From sequence record CP054387.1: 64,000 nucleotides of DNA; one strand, written 5' to 3'. A model generated the notes under the pieces. It ran no database searches, had not been told where the DNA came from, and worked only from the letters and a program-made list of their open reading frames with translations. The position numbers and the translations under genes are program-made. Source of the DNA: Escherichia phage CMS-2020a. Shown here one piece after another: positions 39,853 to 54,764 of the stretch (positions are counted from its first letter, which is position 1; each line of letters begins with the position of its first letter).

Positions 39853-39938
39853 GATTAATTCCTTATCGTAAATAACAAATTGTTTTCTTGTTGGCGTTAA
39901 TTATCGTTGTACGAATAAGGCGTCAAAGTGGAAAGTTG

Positions 39939-40027: not shown

Positions 40028-40202
40028 AAGGCCACCAGCAGTGGTGGCCTTAATAATTATCGACCGATTACGCTAAGGATCTTTTCCTCAACTGATTTGT
40101 TGTTGCGACTAAACTGCCTTGCGTATCTGATGACAGAAGAGGCGTTTTGCTTTCTGACTATCTCGGCTCTTTCCTTCAGGCGTTTCTTGAAATCGCCCAT
40201 AT

Positions 40203-40577
40203 TTACCACCAGGCGCAGAAGGTCAGTCTGTTATTGTGAAAGTCGTGGTTCTTAATCAGCTCTTCCACAAGTTTTTTCAACTCCCCCACGTCATGCCAGT
40301 ACCCTTCATCGTACTCCTGACTGCCGAAGAAAAAACCTTCACAGGTAGGTAAGTACTCTTCGCAGTTACTTTCGTTCATGTGCATCAAATGAGCTTTCAG
40401 AGCACAAATGTCATTCATCGTTAATTCTAAAAGCTCACAATTTTTGACTTCACCTACGTTGCGTTCCATCCACCCAAAGAGAGCATTGAACTTACGGAAG
40501 TAAGCAACCTTCTTTCTGGATGCATCGTTATTCAGATCGTTTTTTGGTTGCGTCTCAATGTAGATATCAAGTCCCAT
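40203..40577 (-). CDS. hypothetical protein
   Basis: 124 aa ORF. Confidence 0.45.
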   Translation of the reverse strand: MGLDIYIETQPKNDLNNDASRKKVAYFRKFNALFGWMERNVGEVKNCELLELTMNDICALKAHLMHMNESNCEEYLPTCEGFFFGSQEYDEGYWHDVGELKKLVEELIKNHDFHNNRLTFCAWW

Positions 40578-40695
40578 GATGGTTTCCTTATCAAGTTGCT
40601 TTCAGTGAAAGCATTTTCACAAATCAGATAAGGCAGAAAACAAATTGTTATCGGGCATAAGAAAATGGCGCGGTTTACGCGCCATTCAAAGAGGA

Positions 40696-41091
40696 TTAAG
40701 CGAATACGCTTTCAGGGATTAAGGTGTCAGCAGGAATGCCGGAGGTAATGCGCAGACCATACTGACCAATCCAGGTAGTGTTAGTGTTCAGACTGGAAGC
40801 GAATACGGTGTTAACCATATTCATCATGGTTTCAAACACCTCTTTATTCACCTTACGGAAGTAACTTTCAATTTTCAACAACAACGGGTCCGTTGCATCA
40901 AAAATGGACTGATATTGCGCCTCATATTCCCCGCCTGATGTATCTCCTTTACGCACAATAGTACTTGCCTGAACTTCAGTTCCAGTTTCGGTGTTGTACG
41001 TAACGACGGTGATTTTAGCTACATTCTTACCTTCGGCGCTTTCTGAAGCATAGTAGACATCAACTGTCAGGTTTTCTCGTTTAACGCTCAT
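40696..41091 (-). CDS. hypothetical protein
   Basis: ORF 40696..41103 with probable start at internal Met (MSVKRENL). Confidence 0.45.
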   Translation of the reverse strand: MSVKRENLTVDVYYASESAEGKNVAKITVVTYNTETGTEVQASTIVRKGDTSGGEYEAQYQSIFDATDPLLLKIESYFRKVNKEVFETMMNMVNTVFASSLNTNTTWIGQYGLRITSGIPADTLIPESVFA

Positions 41092-41216
41092 ATCACTCTC
41101 CATAGTGTCTTGGTTATTTTTCTATTTTATAGACATAGGTATGTACTTACAATACAAAAAACCCCGTAAGGATGGCGGGGCTGTCGTACTGTCGACTAAT
41201 TACCACTTGCACATTA

Positions 41217-41528
41217 TCAGGCTATTGCCATCACTGATGCTCTCTGAATCTCTTGCTGGGCCACGCGGTTAACTTCCATCAAAGCCAGTTCGAGCTGATG
41301 TTCCGGCCACATTCTTTGAAATGCCATCCAGCCTTTTCCACGCTGGCGACGAACATTCATTACATAACGAGTAAAGGTGTTTTTATCGAAAGACACCGCT
41401 GTTTCACGGAACAGACGAATAGAGGTTCCATTGGCAACGATGTCCAGCAAAGTTAATTGAGCAACCAGTGCAGGCTTCTCTTTTCTCTTCTGGTCTTTGT
41501 CCAGACCAAGAACCAATGATTTTTTCAT
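41217..41528 (-). CDS. hypothetical protein
   Basis: ORF 41217..41558, probable start MKKSLVLGL; palindromic motif and 30-bp repeat directly upstream. Confidence 0.45.
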   Translation of the reverse strand: MKKSLVLGLDKDQKRKEKPALVAQLTLLDIVANGTSIRLFRETAVSFDKNTFTRYVMNVRRQRGKGWMAFQRMWPEHQLELALMEVNRVAQQEIQRASVMAIA

Positions 41529-41682
41529 CACAACTCCGTAAACAACTTGTTTTCTCAATGGCGTAAATAATACCAGTAAGAAAACGGCTACAAAGCATAT
41601 TGATCAGGCGCATGAGCGATATGCAGGTTCTTCCCTGCGGCTACAGATGAAGTTAAGCCAGCAATGCTGGCTTTGGTTGGGC

Positions 41683-42012
41683 TTACGCGAATATCGCAAG
41701 GAAGTCCTGAACGTCCCAATGCTGGACGAGGTGAAGATAGACCTTAGAAATCACGTCATTTTCGCTATCGCATGTGAAGTAGTACTTCTGGCTGCGGTTG
41801 TATGTGTCCACACAAAATTCGCTCATATCCATAAAGTCAGCATCTTCACCCATGTCGCAAATCATCAAAGCAGGTGCGTCATCACGAGTCATCAGCTCCA
41901 GCACCCATCTTGAATTAATCAGAGTGGAAGACCAACCTTCCAGCTCATAAAACTGGTCAAACTCTTTTTGAGTCAATTTCTTAATTTGGTTGATGTCGAT
42001 ATTTGCAAACAT
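41683..42012 (-). CDS. hypothetical protein
   Basis: Start ATG 42012 with AAGGA 8 nt upstream (MFANIDINQ...). Confidence 0.45.
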   Translation of the reverse strand: MFANIDINQIKKLTQKEFDQFYELEGWSSTLINSRWVLELMTRDDAPALMICDMGEDADFMDMSEFCVDTYNRSQKYYFTCDSENDVISKVYLHLVQHWDVQDFLAIFA

Positions 42013-42122
42013 AAAGCAATCCTTAAACATGTTGTTTTCTGAATTACGTAAACAATACCAGTAAGAAAACGGCCACAAAGTATATCGTTACGGTGCTACG
42101 CTGCCCCGAGGTTAATAGCGAC

Positions 42123-42147
42123 AAAAGCCACCGTGCTGGTGGCCTCA
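42123..42147 (-). terminator. rho-independent terminator candidate
   Basis: Hairpin gccacc-gtgct-ggtggc followed on minus strand by TTTTGT, just after stop of 42151..42369. Confidence 0.5.
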
Positions 42148-42150
42148 CTC

Positions 42151-42369
42151 TTAATCTTGGTCGTCCGGGAACTCGCTGTGTACCGCGCCCACCAGCTCCC
42201 GCTTTTCATCTTCACTCAGCAGGTGCCAGATATCCTTCCCTTTGGGCGATTCCCCTTCTGCCGGGACGAACGACCACAACTTGCGGTACAACTCCGGCCC
42301 CACTGCATCCAGACACTCAGCCAGGGAATCCACGCCCCACACCTCAACCGTCACAGGCATCTTAATCAT
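42151..42369 (-). CDS. hypothetical small acidic protein
   Basis: 72 aa, GAGGA RBS upstream, visibly higher GC than neighbours. Confidence 0.45.
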   Translation of the reverse strand: MIKMPVTVEVWGVDSLAECLDAVGPELYRKLWSFVPAEGESPKGKDIWHLLSEDEKRELVGAVHSEFPDDQD

Positions 42370-43020
42370 CTCTTCATCCTCACTTCGTTTCTATAACGTC
42401 TAAATATGCTGTTTACTTGTTGGTGTTATTATCGCAATAAGATAAAGGCGAAAAAGGATTTTATGTCGGGAAAGCCAGGCTGGGCAGTGAATATCCGGGA
42501 ACGACACGAGAGCCAGTATTTACGATATTCTGCTCTACGCGCGCCGCGGGGCTGGTGGGTAGAATAATCCTCTCCCCGAAAACCTACTGAAATCGATTGT
42601 GACCCGCTGGCTGTCTGGCACAATTACGCTGTATCTGGCATTCAGAGGGAATCCAGCGGTAAGCAAGTCAGCCTGCACGTGAGCGCCTCTCTTCTTCCCG
42701 CACATTACAGGTGGGTAGCTGCAACTCTCTCGCTATACCGGTACGCCGCCGTTCCTGAACCGGCATCGAGCCTTTTCCCGAAATCCACACAGGCAACTCG
42801 ACCGTTTCCCTGAAAATCCCCAGCCGTTTCTGTAGCGTATGCAACCTTTTCTCTGTATGGACCGAAGGCTGACCGTAGGGGTGTTACGGGGGGTGATGGT
42901 AAGATGTTGAATAAATACGAAAAAGGAGGCGACACACCTCCTTCCCTCTCCACTTATACATACCTGGCTTCTTCGCTATACATGTTGTGTTTTATCTGTC
43001 TCAACCTCTCTATAGGCGTT

Positions 43021-43760
43021 AATGCTCACTCCTTCCAGAATGTTCTATACGGCGACTATTTCTGTTGGTGAATTGGGTGTGTTGTTTTCTCTGTCGGTGT
43101 ATGTGGTTTCGTTAGTTTTGCGGTGGTTCTTCTATGGGGGTGTTCTCGTCGTTTTGGTGATTGTTCTTCTCCGTGTATGGAGTAATGGCAGGTGGGCGAT
43201 TGCTTTCGTTATTGTGTTTGAGTTGTTTGTCTGGAGTGTGTGAAGGCTTTTGTAGTTATTCGTGTATTGGGTAATGGCGTTTCCCGTGATTGTTATGTTT
43301 CGTGTCTTTTGGGATTGAGAGAAACCTTGCGGTTACAGGCTTCGTTAGGGTTTCAGCGGTTCAGGTGTTTCTTCGCTGTTTGGGTAATGGCGTGTCGTGG
43401 GTATCGCGCGTATGAATGTTTTCGGATTGCCTGTGAAAGTTAGGTTGGTTGTCCGGTAGCCTGGGGAGAAGAGGTGGGTCTTTTCGGTAGCCTGCCATAA
43501 AGAGGTTGGTTGTTTTGGGTAATGGCATATGTGTTATTTGGTTGTTTTGTTATGCCTGAAAATAAGTTGTTTATATGGTTGTGTAACGCAACGGGAGCGA
43601 TTTTGAGCGTGTGTTTTTGTTGGTAGTGTGTTGAGTCGTCTGTGGTGAAATTTGGACGCTGTGGCGCTATCTGCTGCGTAGAATTACGGGTATAAGAAGT
43701 GATGTGTGATAACGTCAATTTTTTAGACCAAATCGGGAGAAAGCGTTGATGTTTCGTTGA
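43021..43760 (+). other. strand-asymmetric GT-rich non-coding tract with short repeats
   Basis: Plus strand strongly enriched in G and T; GGGTAATGGC at 43269, 43382, 43517 and a variant at 43180; only low-complexity ORFs. Confidence 0.5.
43454..43517. repeat. iteron-like tandem direct repeats (2 units of ~32 bp)
   Basis: ccggtagcctggggagaagaggtgggtctttt / cggtagcctgccataaagaggttggttgtttt; same family as 39939..40027. Confidence 0.55.
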
Positions 43761-43910
43761 TCTGTTATTTAGTTGTTTTCTTATTGGTATAAACAACCAT
43801 AACCTATTGATATTTAATGATGTGATTGCTGGTATGGGAGGGTAGTAGTGGCGATCAACGGGTTCTTATAGAAAAGAATCAAATTGTGACCGCCATTATC
43901 AACGGTTTGA

Positions 43911-44096
43911 TTAGATGAGATGGTCTAATTCATCATCTATCATGGCTTTGACGCTGGAGTCGTTCACTCCATATTTATTTATGAGCTGTTTCAGCTCTGT
44001 CGAAAACTGAAGGTAGATATCGTGAGCGTTTTTCACTGTAGGTTCAACGCCACTCATTTCAAGCGCCTTTAGTAGATATGAGTCTTCTTTAAGCAT
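43911..44096 (-). CDS. hypothetical small protein (uncertain)
   Basis: 61 aa ORF downstream of 44133..44432. Confidence 0.3.
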   Translation of the reverse strand: MLKEDSYLLKALEMSGVEPTVKNAHDIYLQFSTELKQLINKYGVNDSSVKAMIDDELDHLI

Positions 44097-44132
44097 AAAT
44101 TCTCCGTTATCTAGTATGAAGCGATTGCCGGA

Positions 44133-44432
44133 TTACCATTGCCAGCACTCAAGCCCTTCAACGACCGGTGCGCCACAATCAAAATGTACAGAGTTAAAGC
44201 CTACATCAAGTACTTTCTGAATGTTCGCAATCGCACCCTCGGATATACCATATCGACGCAACTCATCTTTCCAGTCATCGTCCTGTAACCCGGCGTGGAC
44301 AATGCAACCGTACTCAATTTGTGAAACCCAATCCAGCTCATTGCTTGCGATCATGAATCGGCGAGCATCTTCCTCTGATGTATGAGATGAACTGATCAAT
44401 GCCACCTGGTAGGCTTGGGTAATGTTCAACAT
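44133..44432 (-). CDS. hypothetical protein
   Basis: 99 aa ORF; palindromic motif 14 nt upstream of its start. Confidence 0.4.
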   Translation of the reverse strand: MLNITQAYQVALISSSHTSEEDARRFMIASNELDWVSQIEYGCIVHAGLQDDDWKDELRRYGISEGAIANIQKVLDVGFNSVHFDCGAPVVEGLECWQW

Positions 44433-44544
44433 TTCAACTACTCCAAAACAAGTTGTTTTCTTATGTGGCTTATTATCTCAATCAACAAAAGGTAGAAAAC
44501 AAATTGTTTTAGGGATTGTGTAAATCAGGAGGGATTGTGTCTAT

Positions 44545-44575
44545 ATGAAAATGCCCGGCGTGTTGCCGGGCATTG
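44545..44575 (-). terminator. rho-independent terminator of metG
   Basis: Hairpin aatgcccggc-gtgtt-gccgggcatt followed on minus strand by TTTTCAT, about 20 nt after metG stop. Confidence 0.7.
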
Positions 44576-44593
44576 CGAAGAGAGGTTGTTTAA

Positions 44594-46627
44594 TTACTTA
44601 ACCTGGTGGCCAGGTTTAGCACCAGCATCCGGGCTTAACAGGAAGATATCTTTCCCGCCAGGACCGGCAGCCATCACCATGCCTTCAGAGATACCGAAGC
44701 GCATTTTACGTGGTGCCAGGTTAGCCACCATAATGGTGTGACGACCAATCAGTGCCTGTGGATCTGGATAAGCGGAACGGATGCCTGAGAAGACATTACG
44801 CTTTTCACCACCGAGATCCAGCGTCAGGCGAAGCAGTTTGTCAGAACCTTCGACAAACTCCGCGTTTTCAATCAGCGCCACACGCAGGTCAACTTTGGCG
44901 AAGTCGTCAAAGGTGATGGTTTCCTGAATCGGTTCGTCAGCCAGTGGGCCAGTTACCGGTGCAGCTGTGGCTTTCACTTCTTCTTTGGATGCTTCCACCA
45001 GTGCTTCCACCTGTTTCATATCGATACGGTTATACAGTGCCTTGAACGGATTCACTTTATGGCCCAGAAGCGGTTGCTGGATACCATCCCAGGTCAGTTC
45101 TGTATTCAGGAATGCTTCTGCACGTTCAGTCAGTTTCGGCAGTACCGGTTTCAGGTACGTCATCAGCACGCGGAACAGGTTAATGCCCATAGAGCAAATC
45201 GCCTGCAGATCTGCATCGCGACCTTCCTGCTTCGCCACCACCCACGGAGCCTGTTCATCGACATAGCGATTAGCCAGGTCAGCCAATGCCATGATTTCAC
45301 GGATAGCTTTACCAAATTCGCGGCTTTCCCATGCTTCGCCAATCACTTCAGCGGCATCAGTAAAGGTTTTGTACAGTTGCGGGTCAGCCAGTTCGCTTGT
45401 CAGCACGCCGTCAAAACGCTTGTTGATAAAGCCTGCATTACGGGAGGCCAGGTTAACCACTTTGTTCACGATATCGGCATTCACGCGCTGAACGAAATCT
45501 TCCAGGTTGAGATCGATATCATCAATGCGCGAAGAGAGTTTCGCAGTGTAGTAGTAACGCAGGCTGTCAGCGTCAAAATGATTCAGCCAGGTGCTGGCTT
45601 TAATAAAGGTGCCGCGAGACTTGGACATCTTCGCGCCGTTCACCGTCACATAGCCGTGAACAAACAGGTTGGTCGGCTTGCGGAAGTTGCTGCCTTCCAG
45701 CATGGCAGGCCAGAACAGACTGTGGAAGTAAACGATATCTTTGCCGATGAAGTGGTACAGCTCGGCGGTGGAGTCTTTCTTCCAGTATTCGTCGAAGCTT
45801 ACGCTGTCGCCGCGCTTGTCGCACAGATTCTTGAAAGAACCCATGTAGCCAATCGGCGCGTCCAGCCAGACGTAGAAATATTTGCCCGGCGCGTTCGGAA
45901 TTTCAAAACCGAAGTAAGGGGCGTCGCGGGAGATATCCCACTGTTGCAGGCCAGATTCAAACCACTCCTGCATTTTATTTGCCACCTGCTCCTGCAACGC
46001 ACCGCTGCGGGTCCATGCCTGCAACATTTCGCTGAAAGAGGGCAGATCAAAGAAGAAGTGTTCAGAATCACGCATTACCGGCGTAGCGCCAGAAACCACC
46101 GATTTCGGCTCGATCAGTTCAGTCGGGCTGTAGGTCGCGCCGCAGACTTCGCAGTTATCGCCGTATTGATCCGGGGATTTACATTTCGGGCAGGTGCCTT
46201 TTACAAAACGGTCCGGCAGGAACATGCATTTTTCCGGATCGTACAGCTGTGAGATGGTGCGGTTTTTAATAAAACCGTTTTCTTTCAGGCGAGAGTAGAT
46301 AAGCTCGGACAACTGACGGTTCTCTTCGCTGTGCGTCGAGTGATAGTTGTCATAGCTGATGTTAAAGCCTGCGAAATCAGTCTGATGTTCCTGACTCATT
46401 TCGCCAATCATCTGTTCCGGTGTGATACCAAGCTGCTGTGCTTTCAGCATGATTGGCGTACCGTGGGCATCGTCGGCACAGATGAAATTAACCTCGTGGC
46501 CGCGCATTCGCTGGTAACGAACCCAGACATCAGCCTGGATGTGCTCCAGCATATGGCCGAGGTGGATTGAGCCGTTAGCGTACGGCAGCGCGCACGTCAC
46601 CAGAATTTTCTTCGCGACTTGGGTCAT
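44594..46627 (-). CDS. metG: methionine--tRNA ligase
   Basis: Translation from internal Met ([48 protein letters not shown]...) matches enterobacterial MetRS as I recall it, including HLGH and KMSKS motifs and C-terminal tRNA-binding domain; ORF-track N-terminal extension rejected. Confidence 0.97.
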
Positions 46628-46784
46628 AGTAGGCATTACTTCTTTGTAGTGAAAAGGGGCTTGATAGTAACAAAATGGCCTTATGTCTGCCATGTGATAA
46701 CAGCATTTCTCATAAATGATTAAATGTCGTAGCTGGAGTACACTACAAGGCGACAATTGCGCAAATTAAAATAAAGGAGACGGG

Positions 46785-47885
46785 ATGAGCGAGTCCAAAT
46801 CGCCGGATGCCCTGAGAGCAATGGTAGCCGGTACGCTGGCTAATTTTCAGCACCCAACCCTGAAACACAACTTGACTACGCTTAAAGCGTTACACCATGT
46901 TGCGTTGATGGATGACACACTGCATGTCGAACTAATCATGCCTTTCGTGTGGAATAAGCCTTTTGAAGACCTGAAAGAGCAATGTAGTGGTGATCTGCTC
47001 CGTATCACTGGCGCAAAGGCTATTGACTGGAAGCTGTCGTACAACATTGCCACGCTTAAGCGCGTCAAAAACCAACCAGGCATTAATGGCGTTAAGAACA
47101 TTATCGCCGTCAGCTCAGGCAAGGGCGGCGTGGGTAAATCCTCCACAGCAGTAAACTTGGCACTGGCTTTGGCTGCTGAAGGTGCGAAAGTTGGTATTTT
47201 GGATGCCGATATCTATGGTCCATCAATTCCAACCATGCTGGGCGCGGAAAACCAACGTCCAACCTCACCGGACGGTACTCACATGGCACCTATCATGTCT
47301 CATGGCCTGGCAACCAACTCTATTGGTTATCTGGTCACCGATGACAATGCAATGGTGTGGCGTGGACCGATGGCGAGCAAGGCGCTGATGCAGATGTTGC
47401 AGGAAACACTGTGGCCTGATCTGGACTATCTCGTTCTCGATATGCCACCGGGCACTGGTGATATTCAATTGACGCTGGCGCAGAACATTCCTGTAACTGG
47501 TGCGGTTGTGGTAACTACGCCGCAAGACATCGCGCTGATCGATGCGAAGAAAGGCATTGTGATGTTCGAAAAAGTCGAAGTGCCGGTACTGGGTATCGTT
47601 GAAAACATGAGTGTGCATATTTGCAGTAACTGCGGTCATCACGAGCCAATTTTTGGCACCGGTGGAGCACAGAAACTGGCCGAGAAATACAACACGCAGT
47701 TGTTAGGCCAAATGCCACTTCATATCTCTCTTCGTGAAGATCTGGATAACGGAACACCAACCGTTATTAGTCGTCCAGATAGCGAATTTACGGCTATTTA
47801 TCGTGACCTCGCAGATCGCGTTGCTGCCCAAATGTATTGGCAAGGTGAAGTAATACCTGGCGAAATCGCATTCCGCGCAGTGTGA
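46785..47885 (+). CDS. apbC: Fe-S cluster carrier ATPase ApbC/Mrp
   Basis: 366 aa; P-loop SSGKGGVGKSSTAVNLA, CxxC motif HICSNCGH; divergent from metG as in enterobacterial chromosomes. Confidence 0.95.
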   Translation: MSESKSPDALRAMVAGTLANFQHPTLKHNLTTLKALHHVALMDDTLHVELIMPFVWNKPFEDLKEQCSGDLLRITGAKAIDWKLSYNIATLKRVKNQPGINGVKNIIAVSSGKGGVGKSSTAVNLALALAAEGAKVGILDADIYGPSIPTMLGAENQRPTSPDGTHMAPIMSHGLATNSIGYLVTDDNAMVWRGPMASKALMQMLQETLWPDLDYLVLDMPPGTGDIQLTLAQNIPVTGAVVVTTPQDIALIDAKKGIVMFEKVEVPVLGIVENMSVHICSNCGHHEPIFGTGGAQKLAEKYNTQLLGQMPLHISLREDLDNGTPTVISRPDSEFTAIYRDLADRVAAQMYWQGEVIPGEIAFRAV

Positions 47886-47910
47886 TAAAAAGGCGGTGCA
47901 TTGCACCGCC
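47886..47910. terminator. bidirectional hairpin terminator between apbC and the HumD-like gene
   Basis: ggcggtgca-tt-gcaccgcc hairpin; T-run on the minus-strand side. Confidence 0.55.
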
Positions 47911-47922
47911 TAATCAGTTCTC

Positions 47923-48312
47923 CTACATCACAGGACAATCATCAAACTCGCCACTTCTTGCGTCGTTGATAATGTGAGTGATCACACCAAACACGGCATT
48001 GCTGCCCGTGCATCCATCGTCATCCTTTGGCAATGCTTCCTTCTTACCGGTTCTTAAATCCTCCAGATGCTGACGTGGAGACTTCCGGTATCTTTTTACG
48101 CGATATTCCCCATCCAGAGCGCATACAAGCAGAGAACCATCAACCGGGGTAAGTGAGGAATCAACCACCAGCAATGCACCCTGTAATATTCCCTCACGAT
48201 GATGACTATCAGCTGCTCTCATGAAGTAGGTCGCTGAAGGATGTCTAATTATCTGCTGATCAAGAGAAATACGGCTCTCAGCATAATCCGCCGCAGGAGA
48301 AGGGAAGCCCAT
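47923..48312 (-). CDS. UmuD-prime/HumD-like S24-family protein (N-terminally short, resembles processed UmuD)
   Basis: [37 protein letters not shown]... parallels UmuD from about residue 25 ([37 protein letters not shown]); Ser in DSH and Lys in VKRY retained; in-frame stop 4 codons upstream of ATG so no N-terminal arm. Confidence 0.85.
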   Translation of the reverse strand: [129 protein letters not shown]

Positions 48313-48328
48313 AGCGTTTTGCCCTCAA

Positions 48329-48348
48329 TACTGTTCATTTACACAGTA
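48329..48348 (-). promoter_or_regulatory. LexA box (SOS operator)
   Basis: Minus-strand TACTGTGTAAATGAACAGTA fits CTGT-N8-ACAG, 16 nt upstream of the HumD-like start codon. Confidence 0.8.
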
Positions 48349-48484
48349 TACATGAAAGAAGCTCACTCAGTGCAACTGATCGGTACATAGCACCAGACAA
48401 AGGAACGTTATTTTCTCGAACAAGAAAAGGTAGAAAACAAATTGTTTAAGGCCACAACTAGTGGCCTTAATGGAGAAGGGATGC

Positions 48485-49009
48485 TTATTGGCTATGGCTA
48501 AAAATCAAATGAGACACTTCATTTGGTTGTAGCTCGTCAAGATCCGGGGCCACAAAACCTTTTCCGAAAGACTTCACAAGTGATTCACCAGCCGCATCAT
48601 TGTCACCTATTACGCGAAAGTCATACGGCAGCATTGCCAGTTGACGACGTAATCCTGCTGAGAAAGTCGAACCTAACAGCGCCCACGAATTTCCGCCCGC
48701 GTTGTGCACTGCTGCACTTTTAAAAATCGACTCAGTTATCCATATCGGTCCATCTTTTAAAGGAAGATAGGTTCCCCATAGTAGCTGTCTGCCGTGCGCT
48801 CGTGTGAAATACCGGGCCATCTTCGGATTGCTATGCTGCTTAGGAGCGCCTGGTCTGTATGTCTGATACCCGGCCAACATCCCATCAAACCTGTATAGAG
48901 GGAATGTAACAACTCCTTCGCTTTCATCGATCCACTGTCTATATGGATGCACATCATAGCGGTAGTTACGAGTTAGCAAATGAGCTTCCAGCTTTCCAAA
49001 TTTAGTCAT
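48485..49009 (-). CDS. hypothetical protein (possible TOPRIM-like acidic motif)
   Basis: Start at internal Met MTKFGKLEAH; segment RVIGDNDAAGE resembles a DxD TOPRIM motif, weak. Confidence 0.4.
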   Translation of the reverse strand: MTKFGKLEAHLLTRNYRYDVHPYRQWIDESEGVVTFPLYRFDGMLAGYQTYRPGAPKQHSNPKMARYFTRAHGRQLLWGTYLPLKDGPIWITESIFKSAAVHNAGGNSWALLGSTFSAGLRRQLAMLPYDFRVIGDNDAAGESLVKSFGKGFVAPDLDELQPNEVSHLIFSHSQ

Positions 49010-49022
49010 AACTTCGCATCCC

Positions 49023-49877
49023 TCATAACACTTCCCATTTATCACCATATTTCTCCATAGCTCTTAGCCAATAAACATGGCCACTAGGCATAGTGATGTG
49101 AGGCTCGCCAAACTCTTCTCCATGTACATCAAAGATGTCCCCAACAGAAAATTGGGGGATTTCTGTTCCGTTTTCACCTATATGTGTAATTCGTATACGT
49201 TTCGGTTGGGATTGTCCACCTTTGAGCGAGTTGTTCACTGCTCTGGCAATTTTCTCCCGCAATTGCTGCGTTCCGTGATACGTAACCGCAATATCCCGCA
49301 ACTCATTCACTAGTTCTCGAATTTGGTGATCTTTAAGCTCATTATTTGGGTGATTGGTAACAACTCTGGTTAATTCCCCATTGTCTTTTGCTCTTACGTA
49401 TGCAGCTCTTGTGCATTCGCCCCATGTATTACCGCCTACATTAACTTCGTAGATTAGGCTGGACTTATCTGTCAATTCGGAACAAATACGGGCCGTGGTC
49501 TGGCAACTAGAGCATTCGCAGTTATCGCGGAAACCGTGGTCTACTGGCTTCGGTTTAACATCATCAACTTTTTCTACCCTATTGGAATTTAAATACTTCG
49601 AAGCCTTGCTATGCCAATCGCTGGTTTTAGGATCTTGTCCATCCATCAAACGCCAGGCTTCAGCTATTAACTCATAACTAGTGACTGTAGCTTCCTGCGC
49701 ATCACCAATAAGTCGTGTAATCTCTCTTTCAAGCCGACCGCCTAACTCCGTTTTAGTGCAATGTTCTGACCAATCGCCAGTCTCAAGAAGCGCGAGAATG
49801 CTTAAAATATCGTCCAATAGAACGGTAGTATTATCGACTTCCTTCTGAAACTCACCGGCTACTGATTTATGCATCAT
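49023..49877 (-). CDS. hypothetical protein
   Basis: 284 aa ORF with Cys cluster CECSSC. Confidence 0.45.
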   Translation of the reverse strand: MMHKSVAGEFQKEVDNTTVLLDDILSILALLETGDWSEHCTKTELGGRLEREITRLIGDAQEATVTSYELIAEAWRLMDGQDPKTSDWHSKASKYLNSNRVEKVDDVKPKPVDHGFRDNCECSSCQTTARICSELTDKSSLIYEVNVGGNTWGECTRAAYVRAKDNGELTRVVTNHPNNELKDHQIRELVNELRDIAVTYHGTQQLREKIARAVNNSLKGGQSQPKRIRITHIGENGTEIPQFSVGDIFDVHGEEFGEPHITMPSGHVYWLRAMEKYGDKWEVL

Positions 49878-50155
49878 TCGTCATCCTCATCCGAGTCATC
49901 CTCATCACAGGATGAGAGTAGTGGGTTAGTCATTCGCCCTACTTGAGTGGCGTAGCCACGCCGACAGAGATTGCGCAGCACACTGTATATTTCGAACATC
50001 TCGGTTCGTTCATCGCCAACATCAAGCTCAGATGCTATAGCGTGGCATTCAGTCGCGAGAGCCGATATTTTCTGAAATAACTCTGCTTTATTCACTCTTC
50101 GACTCCTGCGGAGGTTCTGGTAGCGGCATCCAGTGAGTTGCTTGCTCAATACCAT
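49874..50155 (-). CDS. hypothetical small protein
   Basis: 93 aa ORF overlapping neighbours by 4 nt, acidic C-terminus. Confidence 0.35.
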   Translation of the reverse strand: MVLSKQLTGCRYQNLRRSRRVNKAELFQKISALATECHAIASELDVGDERTEMFEIYSVLRNLCRRGYATQVGRMTNPLLSSCDEDDSDEDDE

Positions 50156-50663
50156 TACCCGGCTTAATCGTTACATCTCCGCGCCGAAAGGTGATTCCGG
50201 TATAGCGTGCGGAGCATATTAGCGGTTCAACCAGAGAGCTATCGAAATTCACCGAAATAAGCACGTTCTGGCCCTTTTCAGGCATTCGCTCACTACAGCT
50301 TATCCAACCATCCGGAGTTACCGGATGGGGTCCAGCGAACTCGGGAATGTCAGGACCTTTTCTGATAGCTTTAGCCAGATCCAGCGGGTCATCGTAAAGC
50401 CAGTCGCCAGTTTGTGGGTGATTTGCTTCTGCAAGCTGCGCAGCCCATTCAAGACCATCTTTTTGACCTTGGAGATAATCAAGCGGCAACTCTTCATGAT
50501 TACTTGCAGGTTCTGCACTATCAGCTTCGCGCCGCTTCTGTAGCTCTGCTGCCATCGCTCTCACGACTTCAACTGGTGCCCTTGCAGCAAACTCTATGTT
50601 GGTGATCAGCTCATTAAGATATTGCTCGCCTGGATACTGTTTCTTATCGGTTATAGTGGTCAT
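50088..50663 (-). CDS. DUF551-like phage protein
   Basis: Start at internal MTTITDKKQ; segment GWISCSERMPEKGQNVLISV matches the W-I-S-x-x-x-x-LPE pattern I associate with DUF551. Confidence 0.5.
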   Translation of the reverse strand: MTTITDKKQYPGEQYLNELITNIEFAARAPVEVVRAMAAELQKRREADSAEPASNHEELPLDYLQGQKDGLEWAAQLAEANHPQTGDWLYDDPLDLAKAIRKGPDIPEFAGPHPVTPDGWISCSERMPEKGQNVLISVNFDSSLVEPLICSARYTGITFRRGDVTIKPGNGIEQATHWMPLPEPPQESKSE

Positions 50664-50664
50664 A

Positions 50665-51051
50665 TCACTCTCCTTTTCCCTGAAGCATAGCAGCGCGGCA
50701 GGCATTCCAGCCTCTCACCTCTGCAATAGCGGCAACAGCATCAACCGCGTACATGCTAAGAGGATTAGGCATTGGTTTTTCTTCCGGTACTACTGGAACG
50801 GGTGGAGCGGCGTAGACCTCAATAATTCCATTATCAATAGGCCATTCTCCATCCTTGAGGTAGTCACTTGTGCCGTCAACTTGCTGTTCTGCAATGTGGA
50901 ATGCACCTATTGGTTTTGCTTCCAGCGATGCCAGAGCAATTCGTGCCAGTTCTTCCGCTTCTTCTGCTGGCAGTACAACGTTGCTACCAGGTCCGTATGT
51001 TTCGCGCCACTGTTTGATTGTCAGTAGTCGCTCTTTGGTAATAGTGGTCAT
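50665..51051 (-). CDS. hypothetical protein
   Basis: 128 aa; shares MTTIT N-terminus with the neighbouring gene. Confidence 0.45.
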   Translation of the reverse strand: MTTITKERLLTIKQWRETYGPGSNVVLPAEEAEELARIALASLEAKPIGAFHIAEQQVDGTSDYLKDGEWPIDNGIIEVYAAPPVPVVPEEKPMPNPLSMYAVDAVAAIAEVRGWNACRAAMLQGKGE

Positions 51052-51061
51052 GTGTTACTCC

Positions 51062-51325
51062 TTAACCCGCAGTGCTTTCAACTGATGAGGGGAACAAAAT
51101 CCTTTCATCAAATCCGGCATTCATATCATGGACAGCAACACACCAATCCATCGACGAACGATTATCAAGAGCCTCCATGATTTCATCCATGCGGCGCAGG
51201 TCATACAGGTAAATGCTTTTATCGCCAATGGTGTAAAAACCAATTTTTTTCGGTGATGGGCAGCGATCAAGAACGTCCTGTAATTCGTTCAACCATGCCC
51301 GTTCTTTTTTTGTTAAAGTTGCCAT
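51062..51325 (-). CDS. hypothetical protein
   Basis: Start at internal MATLTKKERAW. Confidence 0.4.
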   Translation of the reverse strand: MATLTKKERAWLNELQDVLDRCPSPKKIGFYTIGDKSIYLYDLRRMDEIMEALDNRSSMDWCVAVHDMNAGFDERILFPSSVESTAG

Positions 51326-51326
51326 A

Positions 51327-51848
51327 TCACTCTCCTTTGATGCGAATGCCTGCTGCAATGCTGTTTATGATGCTGTCAGTGCATGGAGTAGAAAGCTGGG
51401 CATCTCCAGCAATTTTCATGACCTCAACATCCGCATATCGAATACCGAGGTGTATCAGACCGGCTATACCTGACTTAAGTCGAACATTTTCCATAAACAG
51501 ATCTTTTTCCCGCTGTTTAGCGGCTTCCAACTCCATCGACAATTTTTCCAACTGCTCTTTATGCTTCTTGTATTCCTGATACGCGTGCCAAGACTGACCT
51601 TTGCGCACACTATCAGTGATATCAGCAACCTGCTCCGGTGTTAGCGTGGTCAGTGGCTGTGCTGGAAAAATCATCACTTTCCCGGCATCCCAATCAAAAC
51701 CCGCCTGAATTGACTGAACCTCAACTGATGGTGTTGAACCGATGCGACCAGGCGAATGAACAACGATCGTTACATCCATATCGCGACGATGGCTGTGGTT
51801 GTTGGACAAAATACGATTCACCAACTCAGAAAATTTGGAAAATTTCAT
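51327..51848 (-). CDS. Ea22-like early protein
   Basis: Start at [10 protein letters not shown] (ATGA overlap); C-terminus ...[12 protein letters not shown] matches the Ea22-family ending as I recall it. Confidence 0.55.
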
Positions 51849-52168
51849 GCTGATCCCTCTTTCTCTCCCCGGATAATTCTGTTGCACACATCCACACACT
51901 CGTCGCAGATGAAAACGGCGTCCCCAGCAATTAACTTTTTGACGGCGTACTGGGATTTGTTGCAGAAGCTGCAACAAAGTGTTCGCCTGACTGATAAGGA
52001 TGGAGCGCCAGATGTCAGCCGCTCCATATCGTTCTTGCGACGCAATATCACACGGCTGAACTCAACCAGTTTCTCCGGGGATATCTCCTCCTCCGTAGCA
52101 AGCGCCTCTAATCGTTCGAGTATGTGGAAGGCTTTTTTCTGGGTAATTGCAGAATGCGATGTGGTCAT
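51845..52168 (-). CDS. ClpX-type C4 zinc-finger domain protein
   Basis: Start at [10 protein letters not shown]; [27 protein letters not shown] resembles ClpX N-terminal zinc-binding domain. Confidence 0.5.
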
Positions 52169-52169
52169 C

Positions 52170-52700
52170 TCACTCTCCTTTGATGCGAATGCCAGCGGCG
52201 CGGGAATCATTCCATCGCTTTACTTCTTCACGAATTACGTCAATGCATTCTTTCGAATCCATTAGGTAATCTTCATCAAAAAGACGTTCCTGTTCGTTTT
52301 CTATCGCAACAATGATTGCTTCAACTAACTTTTGTGCCTGAGAATCACTTTCTAACTCTGCTATGCGCTTACTTCCATCCGAGATAACGCCCTCGTAATA
52401 CTCACGCTGCTCGTTGAGTTTTGATTTTGCCAACTCCAGTTGTTTTGTTAGTTCCGCAATACGGCAAACATCGTTGATACGCGTTTCCTCTAATGCGTTG
52501 ATCTCATCCAGTAGTGCCAGCACGGTTTCTGGTCCGGCCAGAAATTTGAAGGCGTTGAGGGCATCAATATCAACACCGCTATCTTTAAGTTCCTGTTCAC
52601 TTAACAAGTCATCATCAGCTGGCAACATTAACAGGCGTTCCATTGCTGGAATTGCACGTTCCGCCACCTCACGCAGTGCCTGGTAATTAATTTCGCTCAC
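52170..52700 (-). CDS. Ea22-like early protein (paralog)
   Basis: 176 aa, coiled-coil middle, C-terminus ...[12 protein letters not shown]; DNA tail tcactctcctttgatgcgaatgcc repeated at ~51325 and ~52168. Confidence 0.55.
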
Positions 52701-52941
52701 TGGCTGCCTCCTGCTTTTCTGCCTTCAACACCATGCGAGAACCATCATCCAGCTCCCACACTATCTCACCACCTTCAGCCATGACCAGTTGCCACACCAA
52801 TTGAGCAGCCTCATTGGTAACATCACGACCTGGATCATTGCCAACGCGCATACGTCCACCTTCAACATCGCGCATTTTTGCCAGCATGATAGTTTTTGAT
52901 AGCGGTGAAAAACCAAGCTGTAGTCGTGCTGAATTACTCAC
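52687..52941 (-). CDS. hypothetical small protein
   Basis: 84 aa ORF. Confidence 0.4.
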   Translation of the reverse strand: MSNSARLQLGFSPLSKTIMLAKMRDVEGGRMRVGNDPGRDVTNEAAQLVWQLVMAEGGEIVWELDDGSRMVLKAEKQEAASERN

Positions 52942-53480
52942 TGGTTGCCTCCTTTGCGAAGCTGGGCAGCAAAGTCAACTAACCACTCAGTCATTTCAAC
53001 CTTCCCTACCAGGTCTGAACCAGGGTGCATACAGCAATCACTCTGCGCCGCTTTGAAATCCTTATACTCATATTCTTGGGCCACCAGATTTTTTGCAGCT
53101 TCTATAGCAGCATCCACCCCCTGCGCACGTACTTCAGCCAGAAAAGCATCGGTGGCTGGAGTCTCCGTTAATTCGCTAACCCAATTATCTCCGTGTTCCT
53201 CGGCACACATCGCATCGAATGCTCGCTCAGATTCTTTCAGGGCTGCATTCTCCGCCGCTAATGCGTCTCTCTGCGCCCGCAACTTCTCAATTTCGGCAGC
53301 CATGTAGTAACCAACCATAGCGAAGACGGCAAAAGAGTTGTCTGCCTCATCAGGCGACACTGAGGCCATTAGCAGACCATCGTAATAATCGTGACTCCCA
53401 TTGGTGATCGCCACCTCATAGGAGTCGTGGTTCTCACGCTTGTGAATGAGAACTACGGGGTTTTCGATTTTGTTACTCAT
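52938..53480 (-). CDS. hypothetical protein
   Basis: 180 aa ORF; preceded on minus strand by hairpin plus palindromic motif block. Confidence 0.45.
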   Translation of the reverse strand: MSNKIENPVVLIHKRENHDSYEVAITNGSHDYYDGLLMASVSPDEADNSFAVFAMVGYYMAAEIEKLRAQRDALAAENAALKESERAFDAMCAEEHGDNWVSELTETPATDAFLAEVRAQGVDAAIEAAKNLVAQEYEYKDFKAAQSDCCMHPGSDLVGKVEMTEWLVDFAAQLRKGGNQ

Positions 53481-53618
53481 GTGTTTTTCTCTTCTTTGCT
53501 GTTACATAAGCACTACCAAGTGCTGGTTTATTTTCACAAATAAGAAAATGTAGAAAACAATTTATTTAAGGCCACAACTTATGGCCTTTATTTATTCATG
53601 CCGAAGGATTTGTAGCGT

Positions 53619-53999
53619 CTAATTGCCGTATAAAATGGGGTGAGGTGCTTGCCAGTAGGCTCCACCGGTCCATGTGAACCCCATGCGAATAAGAGTGTTT
53701 ATTGCGGCTTTGGTAGACTCCGATTCGACACTGGCTTTACGAAACTCTTGAACCTCTTTCGCCAACCTGTATGTAATTGTGCAGGGGACGATTGCAGCCC
53801 AGCCTTTCTCATGACTGTTAATGACCATCTGGATGTGACCATCCAGAATAGGTTGATTAGACATGTTATTGAAAATGTCTGCCTGTTTTTGAATGTGAAG
53901 AAAAAGCCTTGCCAGCTCCATTTGCTCACTACGAGACAAGGGATTATCAAGAGGGCTTTTTGCAAAAGCGGCTATACGCTGTGCGTCAATGCCAAACAT
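53619..53999 (-). CDS. hypothetical protein
   Basis: 126 aa ORF. Confidence 0.4.
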   Translation of the reverse strand: MFGIDAQRIAAFAKSPLDNPLSRSEQMELARLFLHIQKQADIFNNMSNQPILDGHIQMVINSHEKGWAAIVPCTITYRLAKEVQEFRKASVESESTKAAINTLIRMGFTWTGGAYWQAPHPILYGN

Positions 54000-54703
54000 C
54001 AGCGCACCTCACCATCTTTATGGCTGGAGTTAACTTCCGCCATTAAATGTCTGACGTAATCGACAAGAGAGCCACCTGGTGGAATCTGGCATTCCTCAAC
54101 TAACTGGAAGTAGATATCCGCAGCATTACGTGTATTGCTACCCGCGCATATTCTTTCTTCCCGAAGTGCATGAAGCTCGTTGATCAAACGGTCACACTCT
54201 CCGTTACGCTGATCCACAACAGCCTCAAGTTCTGCGACGCGTTCACCTGGCGTCTTACCTTCTTCGCGTTGGATGGTAACGACGAAATCGCCAATTGCAG
54301 GGACGTTGTAATCCAGCTCAAGGTAGTTTTTGGCACCGCTGCGGACGAACTCACCCGCGAACATGGTGGCGAACATCTCAGAGGCCATTGTGCTGTTGAA
54401 AAGTGACTCCAGATCTAACGGAGTCCCGGCAGCCAGAGCCTCTTTTGCTGTATCCATTGTATCCATGAACCGATCAAACTCATTAGCGCGCTTTTCCAGG
54501 TCTTTCCATTGCTCGCTCCAACGTTTGGCAATGAAGTCTATGAATGTTTTCGCGGATTCATCAAAATCCCCCTCAAACTTAACGATGCCTTTATCAATAA
54601 TGATCTGGCCTACCGCATCCTCTGCATAACCTTTCAATGTAAACTTGAAAGGAAAATCAGAATGGCCTGTGACGTTAAAATGCTCTAACTGGAGGTTGTT
54701 CAT
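53999..54703 (-). CDS. hypothetical protein
   Basis: 234 aa ORF. Confidence 0.45.
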   Translation of the reverse strand: MNNLQLEHFNVTGHSDFPFKFTLKGYAEDAVGQIIIDKGIVKFEGDFDESAKTFIDFIAKRWSEQWKDLEKRANEFDRFMDTMDTAKEALAAGTPLDLESLFNSTMASEMFATMFAGEFVRSGAKNYLELDYNVPAIGDFVVTIQREEGKTPGERVAELEAVVDQRNGECDRLINELHALREERICAGSNTRNAADIYFQLVEECQIPPGGSLVDYVRHLMAEVNSSHKDGEVR

Positions 54704-54764
54704 ATGTTTTTCTCTTATCGTTTAGTTATTACATTCTTACACAAATTAAGTAAGTATTTACCTA

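What the first reader, a model, noticed from the sequence alone, without database searches (positions are those of the whole stretch)
47923..48348. Stand-alone UmuD-prime-like (HumD-like) gene under a near-consensus LexA box, with no umuC partner
Seen in sequence: the protein begins at the position equivalent to the start of processed UmuD ([10 protein letters not shown]...), an in-frame stop lies 4 codons upstream, and the Ser and Lys of the S24 dyad appear retained. A CTGT-N8-ACAG box (TACTGTGTAAATGAACAGTA) sits 16 nt upstream. Established knowledge: phage P1 HumD is a UmuD-prime analogue that supports SOS mutagenesis with host UmuC. Inference: this element supplies a pre-activated mutagenesis subunit during SOS; the gene sits directly beside host apbC at the junction of host and phage DNA.
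Basis: partly seen in the sequence, partly recalled or inferred. Interest (0 to 1): 0.55.

Follow-up and report, generated by a model that had tools for sequence, protein, structure and literature searches.

The report
LexA-controlled humD gene on a phage-plasmid
This is an ordinary, already catalogued copy of humD, a phage gene for a ready-made ("pre-cut") helper subunit of the host's error-prone DNA polymerase V. It is switched on by DNA damage and sits on a 109-kb phage-plasmid, not at a prophage/chromosome junction.

Summary
The sequence observation holds. Window 47923..48312 (-) encodes a 129-aa protein that starts exactly at the UmuD Cys24|Gly25 cleavage point. A TGA stop lies five codons upstream of the ATG. 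A LexA box, TACTGTGTAAATGAACAGTA (48329..48348), ends 16 nt before the ATG.

The protein matches NCBIfam's HumD equivalog over its full length (218.7 bits, cut-off 120) and is 90.7% identical to phage P1 HumD. UmuD' is its best solved-structure match by both sequence and fold. dN/dS against P1 is 0.06. The LexA box is kept in P1, N15, phiKO2, HK639 and the SSU5-like phages, even where the flanking DNA is unrelated.

Neither the window nor the whole related replicon contains a umuC homologue. Chromosomal umuC is present in 5423 of 5426 complete E. coli genomes.

The whole window is 99.7-99.99% colinear with plasmid p09EL50 of E. coli O104:H4, an SSU5/pHCM2-like phage-plasmid. Its metG-apbC is a captured chromosomal block that bona fide phage genomes also carry.

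Verdict: already known, low interest.

Side observations: truncated HumD-type proteins have mostly lost the Ser/Lys dyad, and many carry a conserved acidic C-terminal tail (EFDDCPVM) that resembles the SSB C-peptide.

The parts
47923..48312 (-). humD coding sequence (129 aa plus TAG stop). It encodes a pre-truncated UmuD'-type subunit.
   Evidence: ORF list and translation. NCBIfam NF051876 HumD equivalog, 218.7 bits, positions 1-129 of 129. Pfam Peptidase_S24. PHROG 811 UmuD-like. 90.7% aa identity to P1 HumD. dN/dS 0.06 against P1.
48329..48348 (.). LexA operator (SOS box). It reads TACTGTGTAAATGAACAGTA on the gene strand, matches 16 of 20 positions of the TACTG(TA)5CAGTA palindrome, and both outer TACTG/CAGTA pentamers are perfect.
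   Evidence: Unique in the window. Conserved in register in P1 (annotated there as a LexA binding site), PhiR41_1, p48956_3 and Cyrano. In Cyrano the surrounding upstream DNA is unrelated. Equivalent boxes lie 14-21 nt before the start codon in N15, HK639, Hafnia and Aeromonas phages.
48345..48375 (-). Candidate sigma-70 promoter (inferred). The -35 TTGCAC is at 48375..48370 and the -10 TATACT at 48350..48345. The spacer is 19 nt, and the -10 overlaps the left half of the LexA box.
   Evidence: Read from the sequence. The TTGCAC/TGCAC and T(A/G)TACT elements are conserved in P1 and PhiR41_1. The consensus scanner, which allows 16-18 nt spacers, did not call it, so it is unproven.
48322..48326 (-). 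Shine-Dalgarno-like GAGGG, 9 nt before the ATG.
   Evidence: Read from the sequence. Conserved as GAGG in P1 and PhiR41_1.
47891..47911 (-). Intrinsic terminator of humD. It has a 9-bp stem with 7 G-C pairs and a 3-nt loop, followed by UUUUUA on the humD strand. It lies between the stop codons of humD and apbC.
   Evidence: Terminator scan. RNA fold gives -18.6 kcal/mol, z = -4.9, and 0 of 200 shuffles fold as well.
48446..48470 (-). Hairpin (10-bp stem) at the end of the upstream toprim/primase-like gene. It bounds the humD unit on its 5' side, so humD most likely has its own promoter.
   Evidence: Terminator scan. Conserved in p48956_3 and PhiR41_1.

Best explanation
The gene is humD, the phage-borne stand-alone homologue of UmuD', carried as a self-contained unit: promoter with LexA operator, then the coding sequence, then a terminator. 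It sits on an SSU5/pHCM2-like phage-plasmid of E. coli that is essentially p09EL50.

Proposed mechanism:
1. In undamaged cells, host LexA binds the box that overlaps the -10 region and keeps the gene off.
2. DNA damage activates RecA, LexA cleaves itself, and humD is transcribed.
3. HumD is made without the 24-residue N-terminal arm of UmuD, so it needs no RecA-mediated self-cleavage.
4. By analogy with P1 HumD (91% identical), it dimerises and binds the host's chromosomal UmuC and RecA filaments. The resulting Pol V-like translesion polymerase skips the slow UmuD-to-UmuD' checkpoint.
5. The likely benefit is lesion bypass, and so survival of the 109-kb replicon (and its host) during SOS, at the price of mutagenesis.

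Shown here: identity, family membership, truncation, operator presence and conservation, purifying selection, absence of umuC on the element, and near-universal presence of umuC in E. coli.

Inferred: LexA binding in vivo, the promoter position, partnership with UmuC, and the benefit to the element.
For: - Family and identity: HumD equivalog at 218.7 bits against a cut-off of 120, while the UmuD and LexA models fall below their cut-offs. 90.7% identity to P1 HumD, 69-71% to N15 gp26 and phiKO2 gp23.
- Structure: UmuD' 1umu matches at E=5e-23 by sequence. It is the top Foldseek hit at E=1e-7, against >=7e-4 for LexA/CI domains.
- N-terminus: the start is in register with UmuD Gly25, and a stop lies upstream.
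- Operator: conserved across lineages, including Cyrano where the flank has been replaced. The P1 record annotates the homologous site as a LexA site.
- Selection: dN/dS 0.05-0.07 at dS 0.77.
- Partner: no UmuC homologue on the window or the plasmid. umuC is in 5423 of 5426 complete E. coli genomes.
- Literature: P1 encodes an already activated, shorter UmuD called HumD (PMC7092418, citing McLenigan et al. 1999). humD is described as a LexA-regulated SOS gene (PMC9603915). UmuD cleavage is the rate-limiting switch that releases UmuC and allows Pol V to form (PMC4552617).
Against: - Nothing functional was tested for this copy. All biochemistry is transferred from P1 HumD, and I could not read the primary paper (PMC94175 is not held).
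- From my own memory of that paper, P1 HumD is poorly expressed and complemented well only from a high-copy vector, so its physiological weight is uncertain.
- The candidate promoter has a non-optimal 19-nt spacer, and the scanner did not call it.
- HumD-type proteins carry a conserved C-terminal extension that UmuD' lacks. They may therefore do something beyond substituting for UmuD'.
- The element has its own RecA, gp32-like SSB and DnaE. A partner other than host UmuC is not excluded.
Confidence: 0.82

Rival explanations
1. HumD is an enzyme, not only a subunit. This clade (P1 and SSU5-like) keeps the Ser/Lys dyad. HumD could therefore heterodimerise with host UmuD and cleave it in trans, speeding conversion of the host's UmuD pool to UmuD'.
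For: Ser36 and Lys73 are both retained here and in P1, whereas only 2 of 32 truncated-type representatives keep both. From my own knowledge of McDonald et al. 1998 (listed as reference 49 in PMC4552617), UmuD-like proteins cleave intermolecularly and UmuD' can act as the enzyme.
Against: Close, clearly orthologous relatives (N15, phiKO2, HK639, HK140) have Thr in place of the Ser, and HK639 has Met in place of the Lys. Catalysis is therefore not what the family is selected for. The GDSM motif here is ADSH with a one-residue deletion. The retention may simply reflect recent ancestry.
Confidence: 0.07
2. HumD mainly manages replication rather than mutagenesis. It may bind replisome or recombination proteins (host Pol III alpha/beta/epsilon, or the element's own DnaE, RecA and gp32-like SSB). 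That could lift or impose a damage checkpoint on the phage-plasmid's replication during induction.
For: umuD gene products bind Pol III alpha, beta and epsilon (abstract of PMC3384344). The element encodes DnaE, RecA and a gp32-like protein. In P1 and D6, humD lies near hot, a Pol III theta homologue. The family carries a conserved extra C-terminal tail that no N-extended UmuD has.
Against: No direct evidence. From memory of the P1 work, the effects were UmuC-dependent mutagenesis and UV survival. HumD also occurs in small integrating lambdoid and P22-like phages that have no replisome genes of their own.
Confidence: 0.08
3. It is a generic S24 (LexA/CI-type) repressor C-terminal domain, or a decaying remnant of a umuDC operon, with no function of its own.
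For: Older RefSeq annotation calls it 'S24 family peptidase', and the Cyrano record says 'LexA-like peptidase S24'.
Against: The LexA model scores 27.9 bits against a cut-off of 110.95. There is no DNA-binding domain and no room for one. UmuD' is far closer than LexA/CI in sequence and fold. dN/dS of 0.06 and an intact 129-aa frame across hundreds of plasmids argue against decay. No remnant of the UmuD N-terminus or of umuC is present.
Confidence: 0.02

Closest known systems
Bacteriophage P1 HumD (P1_gp103; McLenigan et al. 1999)
   Same: 129 aa and 90.7% identical. Same start at the UmuD' N-terminus and same C-terminal tail. Same LexA box, differing at one base (TACTGTATAAATGAACAGTA in P1). 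Stand-alone with no umuC. Carried on a phage-plasmid.
   Different: The replicon lineage differs (SSU5/pHCM2-like siphovirus phage-plasmid against P1-like myovirus). The neighbours differ: apbC and a toprim gene here, against lxr/hot and phd-doc in P1. Homology with P1 is confined to the box-plus-CDS cassette, 47924..48359. The gene here has its own intrinsic terminator.
E. coli UmuD / UmuD' (Pol V accessory subunit; PDB 1UMU, 1AY9)
   Same: Same fold. About 42-44% identity over UmuD residues 25-139. Ser/Lys positions are retained. Under LexA control.
   Different: No 24-residue N-terminal arm or cleavage site, so no RecA-dependent activation step. Not in an operon with umuC. It has an 11-residue acidic C-terminal extension and a short internal insertion. 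It scores below the curated cut-off of the UmuD model, 87.8 against 110.
N15 gp26, phiKO2 gp23 and lambdoid HK639/HK140 UmuD-like morons
   Same: Truncated and stand-alone, with a LexA box just upstream and the same C-terminal tail. Placed as a cargo gene at a module boundary.
   Different: 64-73% identical. The catalytic Ser is replaced by Thr, and in HK639 the Lys is replaced by Met. They are often paired divergently with dinI.
Phage- and plasmid-borne full umuDC-type operons (e.g. Salmonella phage Oslo, Cronobacter phage ENT39118; mucAB, rumAB, impCAB on plasmids)
   Same: Mobile-element-borne, LexA-controlled translesion functions (PMC11541004).
   Different: Those encode a full-length, cleavable UmuD with an intact GDSM/K dyad plus their own UmuC, and have no acidic tail.

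Membership tests
HumD family (NCBIfam NF051876, equivalog) | Scores above the curated whole-protein cut-off of the family model over its full length | tested here: met
   218.7 bits against a cut-off of 120; protein 1-129 matches profile 1-129 of 129.
HumD family (NCBIfam NF051876, equivalog) | The protein starts at the position of the UmuD' N-terminus (Gly25 of UmuD), with no cleavable N-terminal arm | tested here: met
   [10 protein letters not shown] aligns to UmuD G25-FPSPAADY. An in-frame TGA lies 5 codons upstream. tblastn finds no UmuD residues 1-24 nearby.
HumD family (NCBIfam NF051876, equivalog) | Stand-alone gene with no cognate umuC on the element | tested here: met
   Bounded by hairpins on both sides. 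No UmuC hit at E<=10 in the window or the full p09EL50. No Y-family polymerase among the 129 features. The two hypothetical ORFs over 300 aa that were scanned are gp32-like and primase-like.
HumD family (NCBIfam NF051876, equivalog) | LexA box immediately upstream (SOS regulation) | tested here: met
   The box lies at 48329..48348, 16 nt before the ATG. It is homologous to the annotated P1 LexA site. Actual LexA binding was not tested.
HumD family (NCBIfam NF051876, equivalog) | Substitutes for UmuD' in vivo and binds UmuC and RecA filaments | not testable with these tools
   Inferred only from 90.7% identity to P1 HumD and secondary citations (PMC7092418, PMC9603915).
UmuD, autoproteolytic Pol V subunit (NCBIfam NF007621 / PRK10276) | Meets the curated model cut-off | tested here: not met
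   87.8 bits against a cut-off of 110.
UmuD, autoproteolytic Pol V subunit (NCBIfam NF007621 / PRK10276) | N-terminal arm with a Cys/Ala-Gly self-cleavage site | tested here: not met
   Absent.
UmuD, autoproteolytic Pol V subunit (NCBIfam NF007621 / PRK10276) | Ser-Lys catalytic dyad | tested here: met
   Ser36 and Lys73 align with S60 and K97. In truncated relatives the dyad is mostly lost: both residues are kept in 2 of 32, against 41 of 45 N-extended homologues.
UmuD, autoproteolytic Pol V subunit (NCBIfam NF007621 / PRK10276) | First gene of a umuDC-type operon | tested here: not met
   No umuC downstream. A terminator and the convergent apbC follow instead.
LexA / lambda CI-type repressor | N-terminal DNA-binding domain plus S24 C-terminal domain; meets the LexA model | tested here: not met
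   TIGR00498 scores 27.9 bits against a cut-off of 110.95 and matches only the C-terminal domain. The protein consists of the S24 domain alone. LexA/CI structures match 3-4 orders of magnitude worse than UmuD'.
SSU5/pHCM2-like phage-plasmid (genomic context) | Colinear with a circular ~110-kb replicon that has siphovirus structural genes plus plasmid replication and partition genes | tested here: met
   The window equals p09EL50 92686..109274 plus 1..47410 at 99.7-99.99%. Tail, capsid, terminase, ParB, RepB, dnaE, nrdAB, thyA and tRNAs are annotated. The literature places p09EL50 with pLF82, pHCM2 and SSU5 (PMC3486847, PMC3999498).

The most novel reading that the evidence does not exclude
HumD-type proteins may be more than 'UmuD' without the cleavage step'.

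About a third of the truncated stand-alone lineage carries a conserved acidic C-terminal peptide, and none of the 45 N-extended UmuD homologues does. The consensus is ...ND(A/M)RSxE(F/W)DDxP(V/C)(M/I/L), with variants ending DDTPF or HDNLPF.

This peptide resembles the SSB C-peptide DFDDDIPF, through which SSB recruits its partner proteins. The last five residues are predicted to be disordered.

The tail could dock HumD(-UmuC) onto SSB-interacting replisome or repair proteins, or compete with SSB for them. That would give phages a way to steer the host's translesion polymerase that the host's own UmuD' lacks.
Probability: 0.1. Interest if true: 0.55.

Novelty: already known. Interest (0 to 1): 0.15.

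Why it matters
As a gene finding it adds little. HumD has been known since the 1990s and has a curated NCBIfam equivalog model. RefSeq already names a one-residue variant of this protein on sister plasmids.

Two practical points remain:
- SSU5-like phage-plasmids of E. coli, E. albertii and Shigella sometimes carry blaCTX-M-15 (PMC3999498). Like P1-like phage-plasmids, they bring an SOS-inducible, pre-activated Pol V cofactor into clinical strains. That could raise damage-induced mutagenesis, for example under fluoroquinolones.
- An apparent 'host gene next to phage gene' boundary can be internal cargo of an extrachromosomal phage-plasmid rather than an integration junction.

The family-level side observations (decay of the Ser/Lys dyad, and an SSB-tip-like acidic tail confined to truncated forms) are cheap to test. 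I did not find them discussed in the held literature.

Tried and rejected
- Prophage/chromosome junction at apbC: rejected. The window is wholly colinear with a circular plasmid, and phage genomes carry the same metG-apbC-humD block.
- Hidden umuC or other Y-family polymerase: none by tblastn at E<=10, by RefSeq annotation, or by a Pfam scan of two large hypothetical ORFs, which turned out gp32-like and primase-like.
- Defence-system membership: no PADLOC hit for HumD or its two upstream neighbours.
- Second SOS box in the window: the only other CTGT-N8-ACAG, at 41399, has a GC-rich spacer and lacks the TA/TA flanks. Two matches against 0.88 expected is unremarkable.
- Canonical promoter call: the scanner found none on the gene strand. 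The promoter I give is read by eye and has a 19-nt spacer.
- 'HumD is restricted to phage-plasmids': rejected. It also occurs in integrating lambdoid and P22-like phages such as HK639, HK140 and BTP1.
- Primary literature: McLenigan 1999 (PMC94175) and the P1 genome paper (PMC523184) are not held. No held paper combines SSU5 with UmuD. Two phage-plasmid surveys do not mention umuD, LexA or metG.

Full report
**What is at the coordinates**

The minus strand of window 47923..48312 holds a 129-codon ORF beginning [10 protein letters not shown]. Read upstream in frame, the sequence is ...Y-stop-G-Q-N-A-M. A TGA stop is separated from the ATG by four sense codons, so the protein cannot be longer at its N-terminus.

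The 20-mer TACTGTGTAAATGAACAGTA occupies 48348..48329 on the gene strand and ends 16 nt before the ATG. It matches the TACTG(TA)5CAGTA palindrome at 16 of 20 positions, and both outer pentamers are perfect. It is the only TACTGT-N8-ACAGTA in the 64 kb even when one mismatch is allowed. The shuffle expectation is 0.17, and 16 of 100 shuffles gave at least one match. The looser CTGT-N8-ACAG pattern occurs twice against 0.88 expected. Chance alone is therefore not excluded by counting. Position and conservation carry the argument (see "The operator is conserved" below).

A GAGGG lies 9 nt before the ATG.

A GC-rich hairpin followed by a U-run on the gene strand (47911..47891; -18.6 kcal/mol, z = -4.9) lies between the stop codons of this gene and of the convergent apbC. 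Another hairpin (48470..48446) ends the upstream toprim-like gene. The gene therefore looks like a self-contained transcription unit.

A plausible promoter has its -35 TTGCAC at 48375..48370 and its -10 TATACT at 48350..48345, overlapping the box. The elements are conserved in P1 and PhiR41_1. However, the spacer is 19 nt and the consensus scanner did not call it. I mark it as inferred.

**What the protein is**

- Pfam finds Peptidase_S24.
- NCBIfam places it in the equivalog 'HumD family translesion DNA polymerase' (NF051876) at 218.7 bits against a cut-off of 120, matching 1-129 of 129. The autoproteolytic UmuD model (87.8 against 110) and the LexA model (27.9 against 110.95) are not met.
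- PHROGs gives 'UmuD-like protein'.
- Against solved structures, the best sequence matches are UmuD' 1UMU (E = 5e-23) and UmuD, and LexA only reaches 1e-3.
- An AlphaFold2 model (mean pLDDT 75.7, core 84-88) finds UmuD' and UmuD as its top Foldseek hits (E about 1e-7). LexA and lambda CI C-terminal domains score 7e-4 or worse.
- An alignment with K-12 UmuD (sequence taken from NC_000913) puts Gly2 on UmuD Gly25, the residue after the Cys24|Gly25 cleavage site. Ser36 falls on Ser60 and Lys73 on Lys97.
- The protein is 90.7% identical to P1 HumD, 69% to N15 gp26, 71-73% to phiKO2 gp23 and 64-66% to the HK639 and HK140 proteins.
- Against P1 humD, the DNA is 85.5% identical with dS = 0.77 and dN/dS = 0.06. 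This indicates strong purifying selection.

**The operator is conserved**

The P1 record annotates the homologous 20-mer as 'LexA binding site in the regulatory region of lxr and humD'. The box is kept in register in P1, PhiR41_1 and plasmid p48956_3. It is also kept in phage Cyrano, where the rest of the upstream DNA is unrelated. LexA-type boxes also lie 14-21 nt before the start codon in N15, HK639, Hafnia phage Pocitis76, Aeromonas phage pAEv1818 and Pantoea phage G19. In phiKO2 the annotated LexA site sits between dinI and the gene. A published survey of P1-like phage-plasmids describes humD as a LexA-regulated SOS gene (PMC9603915).

- The 1.5 kb around the gene matches about 110-kb E. 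coli plasmids at 98.5-99.9%.
- The whole 64-kb window is colinear with plasmid p09EL50 of E. coli O104:H4 2009EL-2050. Window 1..16589 equals plasmid 92686..109274 at 99.99%, and window 16590..64000 equals plasmid 1..47410 at 99.65%.
- That replicon carries tail, capsid, portal and terminase genes. It also carries ParB and RepB, dnaE, a DnaB-like helicase, ligase, recA, nrdAB, thyA, dfrA51 and tRNAs. The literature groups it with pLF82, pHCM2 and phage SSU5 (PMC3486847, PMC3999498).
- The phage genomes Cyrano and PhiR41_1 (both about 108 kb) have the same metG - apbC - humD order.
- The metG-apbC block (window 44593..47881) is 88.9% identical in DNA to the divergent mrp-metG pair of K-12, with homology ending at the two stop codons. 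MetG is 99% and ApbC 94% identical in protein.

This is an old captured chromosomal segment carried as cargo, not the resident chromosome. There is no prophage attachment junction here.

**Is there a partner?**

tblastn with K-12 UmuC finds nothing at E <= 10 in the window or in the complete p09EL50. None of its 129 annotated features is a Y-family polymerase. Two large hypothetical ORFs proved to be a gp32-like ssDNA-binding protein and a primase-like protein. Chromosomal umuC is found in 5423 of 5426 complete E. coli genomes. The obvious partner is therefore the host's UmuC, as for P1.

**How common it is**

- In PLSDB, 687 plasmids encode a homologue at E <= 1e-30, and 626 of them are non-mobilizable. 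Identity is >=95% in 178 plasmids; those listed are about 107-115 kb (one of 218 kb) from E. coli, E. albertii and Shigella sonnei. It is 90-95% in 424; those listed are mostly 89-102 kb (range 70-187 kb), consistent with P1-like elements.
- In the phage collection, 91 records match. They include integrating lambdoid and P22-like phages, so the gene is not confined to phage-plasmids.
- Apart from Cyrano, PhiR41_1 and CMS-2020a, no SSU5-type phage record appears among the 60 rows listed. Only three records exceed 95% identity. humD therefore appears to belong to the variable cargo of the E. coli branch.
- RefSeq already names a one-residue variant (WP_000506720.1) 'HumD family translesion DNA polymerase'.

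**Mechanism**

Established knowledge: UmuD must be cleaved by RecA* to UmuD' before UmuD'2C (Pol V) can form. This inefficient step delays mutagenic bypass, and cleavage also releases UmuC from the membrane. UmuD/UmuD' heterodimers are degraded by ClpXP (PMC4552617). [quoted passage not shown] 1999). From my own memory of that paper, which I could not read here, HumD restored mutagenesis and UV survival in suitable mutants when over-expressed, dimerised, and bound UmuC and RecA filaments, but was poorly expressed.

For this 91%-identical orthologue I infer the following. LexA represses the gene. SOS induction derepresses it. HumD dimers then join host UmuC without waiting for UmuD processing, which aids lesion bypass on the 109-kb replicon and the host chromosome. 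No step after 'the box and the protein are there and conserved' was tested here.

**Family-level observations made along the way**

A search of 1.84 billion cluster representatives gave 3453 hits at E <= 1e-3. Among the best 150 hits, those complete enough to score fell into two groups:

| Group | n | Ser kept | Lys kept | Both kept | Acidic tail |
|---|---|---|---|---|---|
| Truncated type (start M-[GAS]-[FM], no arm) | 32 | 5 | 12 | 2 | 10 |
| N-extended type (arm of 15 aa or more) | 45 | 41 | 42 | 41 | 0 |

The same pattern shows in named phages. N15, phiKO2, HK639 and HK140 have Thr at the Ser position, and HK639 has Met at the Lys position. Aeromonas and Hafnia phages have lost both residues. 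Phage UmuDs that sit with a umuC (Oslo, ENT39118) keep GDSM and the Lys.

This fits a protein that never needs to cut itself.

Second, the truncated class often carries a conserved acidic C-terminal extension. Here it reads ...[15 protein letters not shown]. Variants end EWDDLPVI, EFDDTPF and EFHDNLPF. No N-extended homologue has it. Its last five residues are predicted to be disordered. It resembles the SSB C-peptide DFDDDIPF, which mediates SSB's protein contacts (PMC3936761). This is a resemblance, not a test. I give it as the most novel reading not excluded.

**Verdict**

The sequence observation is correct, and the main functional reading is right by close homology. The 'host/phage junction' context is wrong. 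The gene is a member of an already described and already annotated family. Interest is low.

Noticed in passing
window 44593..47881: The divergent metG-apbC pair is a captured chromosomal block on the phage-plasmid. It is 88.9% identical in DNA to K-12 mrp-metG over 3298 bp, with homology ending exactly at the two stop codons. MetG is 99% and ApbC 94% identical in protein. The same block is in phages Cyrano and PhiR41_1. Why a phage-plasmid keeps a near-perfect methionyl-tRNA synthetase and an Fe-S carrier is unexplained.
   Followed up: partly
window 47926..47970 (C-terminal residues of HumD); alignments A2, A3: The acidic C-terminal extension (...GEFDDCPVM) is nearly invariant in 6 HumD proteins of 64-91% identity. 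It is present in 10 of 32 truncated representatives and 0 of 45 N-extended UmuD homologues. It resembles the SSB C-peptide DFDDDIPF. The last 5 residues have pLDDT below 50 (PMC3936761).
   Followed up: partly
alignment columns of HumD Ser36 and Lys73 across 150 representatives: The Ser/Lys dyad has decayed in the truncated stand-alone class (both kept in 2 of 32) but is kept in the N-extended class (41 of 45). The window/P1 clade is among the few truncated forms that still have both.
   Followed up: yes
L006 30449..30468 (p09EL50 80449..80468; outside the window): A second LexA-like box, ACCTGTATAAGTAACCAGTA (14 of 20 matches to consensus), lies about 30 nt upstream of the tyrosine recombinase gene (79316..80419, minus strand). 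That gene is next to an HTH regulator. This may be an SOS input into the element's recombinase or lysogeny region.
   Followed up: no
window 51845..52210 (-): A small protein consists of little more than a ClpX-type C4 zinc finger (Pfam zf-C4_ClpX, E=1.7e-15; PHROG 6797). It lies in the ea22/eaa-like accessory region 3.5 kb upstream of humD. UmuD/UmuD' heterodimers are ClpXP substrates (PMC4552617). From memory, UmuD tethers to the ClpX N-domain, so a decoy domain might protect HumD. This is pure speculation.
   Followed up: no
L003 4424..5225 (phage Cyrano) compared with window 48313..48480: In Cyrano and CMS-2020a, homology to the window stops exactly at the humD start codon. The upstream region is replaced by unrelated DNA that nevertheless carries its own, more consensus-like LexA box (TACTGTATGTGTATACAGTA) at the same 16-nt distance.
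   Followed up: partly
window 48485..49048 (-): The gene upstream of humD matches only the central Toprim part of phage DNA primase profiles (PHROG 849, positions 142-333 of 435). It has no Pfam hit at E<=1e-3. It is a stand-alone Toprim fragment of unknown role.
   Followed up: partly
L006 17186..18259, 19533..20561 and 21236..24754 (p09EL50; outside the window): The phage-plasmid encodes its own RecA (Pfam RecA, E=2e-42), a T4 gp32-like ssDNA-binding protein (E=2e-66) and DnaE. The SOS-related partners available to HumD may therefore not be only the host's.
   Followed up: no
L009 1181..1884 (phiKO2) and L011 910..1890 (HK140): In phiKO2 and HK140 the truncated umuD'-like gene is paired divergently with a dinI homologue. 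In phiKO2 a LexA site is annotated between them. This looks like a recurrent two-gene SOS moron. The window copy has no dinI beside it.
   Followed up: no
window 41399..41414: The only other CTGT-N8-ACAG in the window is CTGTTTCACGGAACAG. It has a GC-rich spacer and no TA flanks, and is probably chance.
   Followed up: partly
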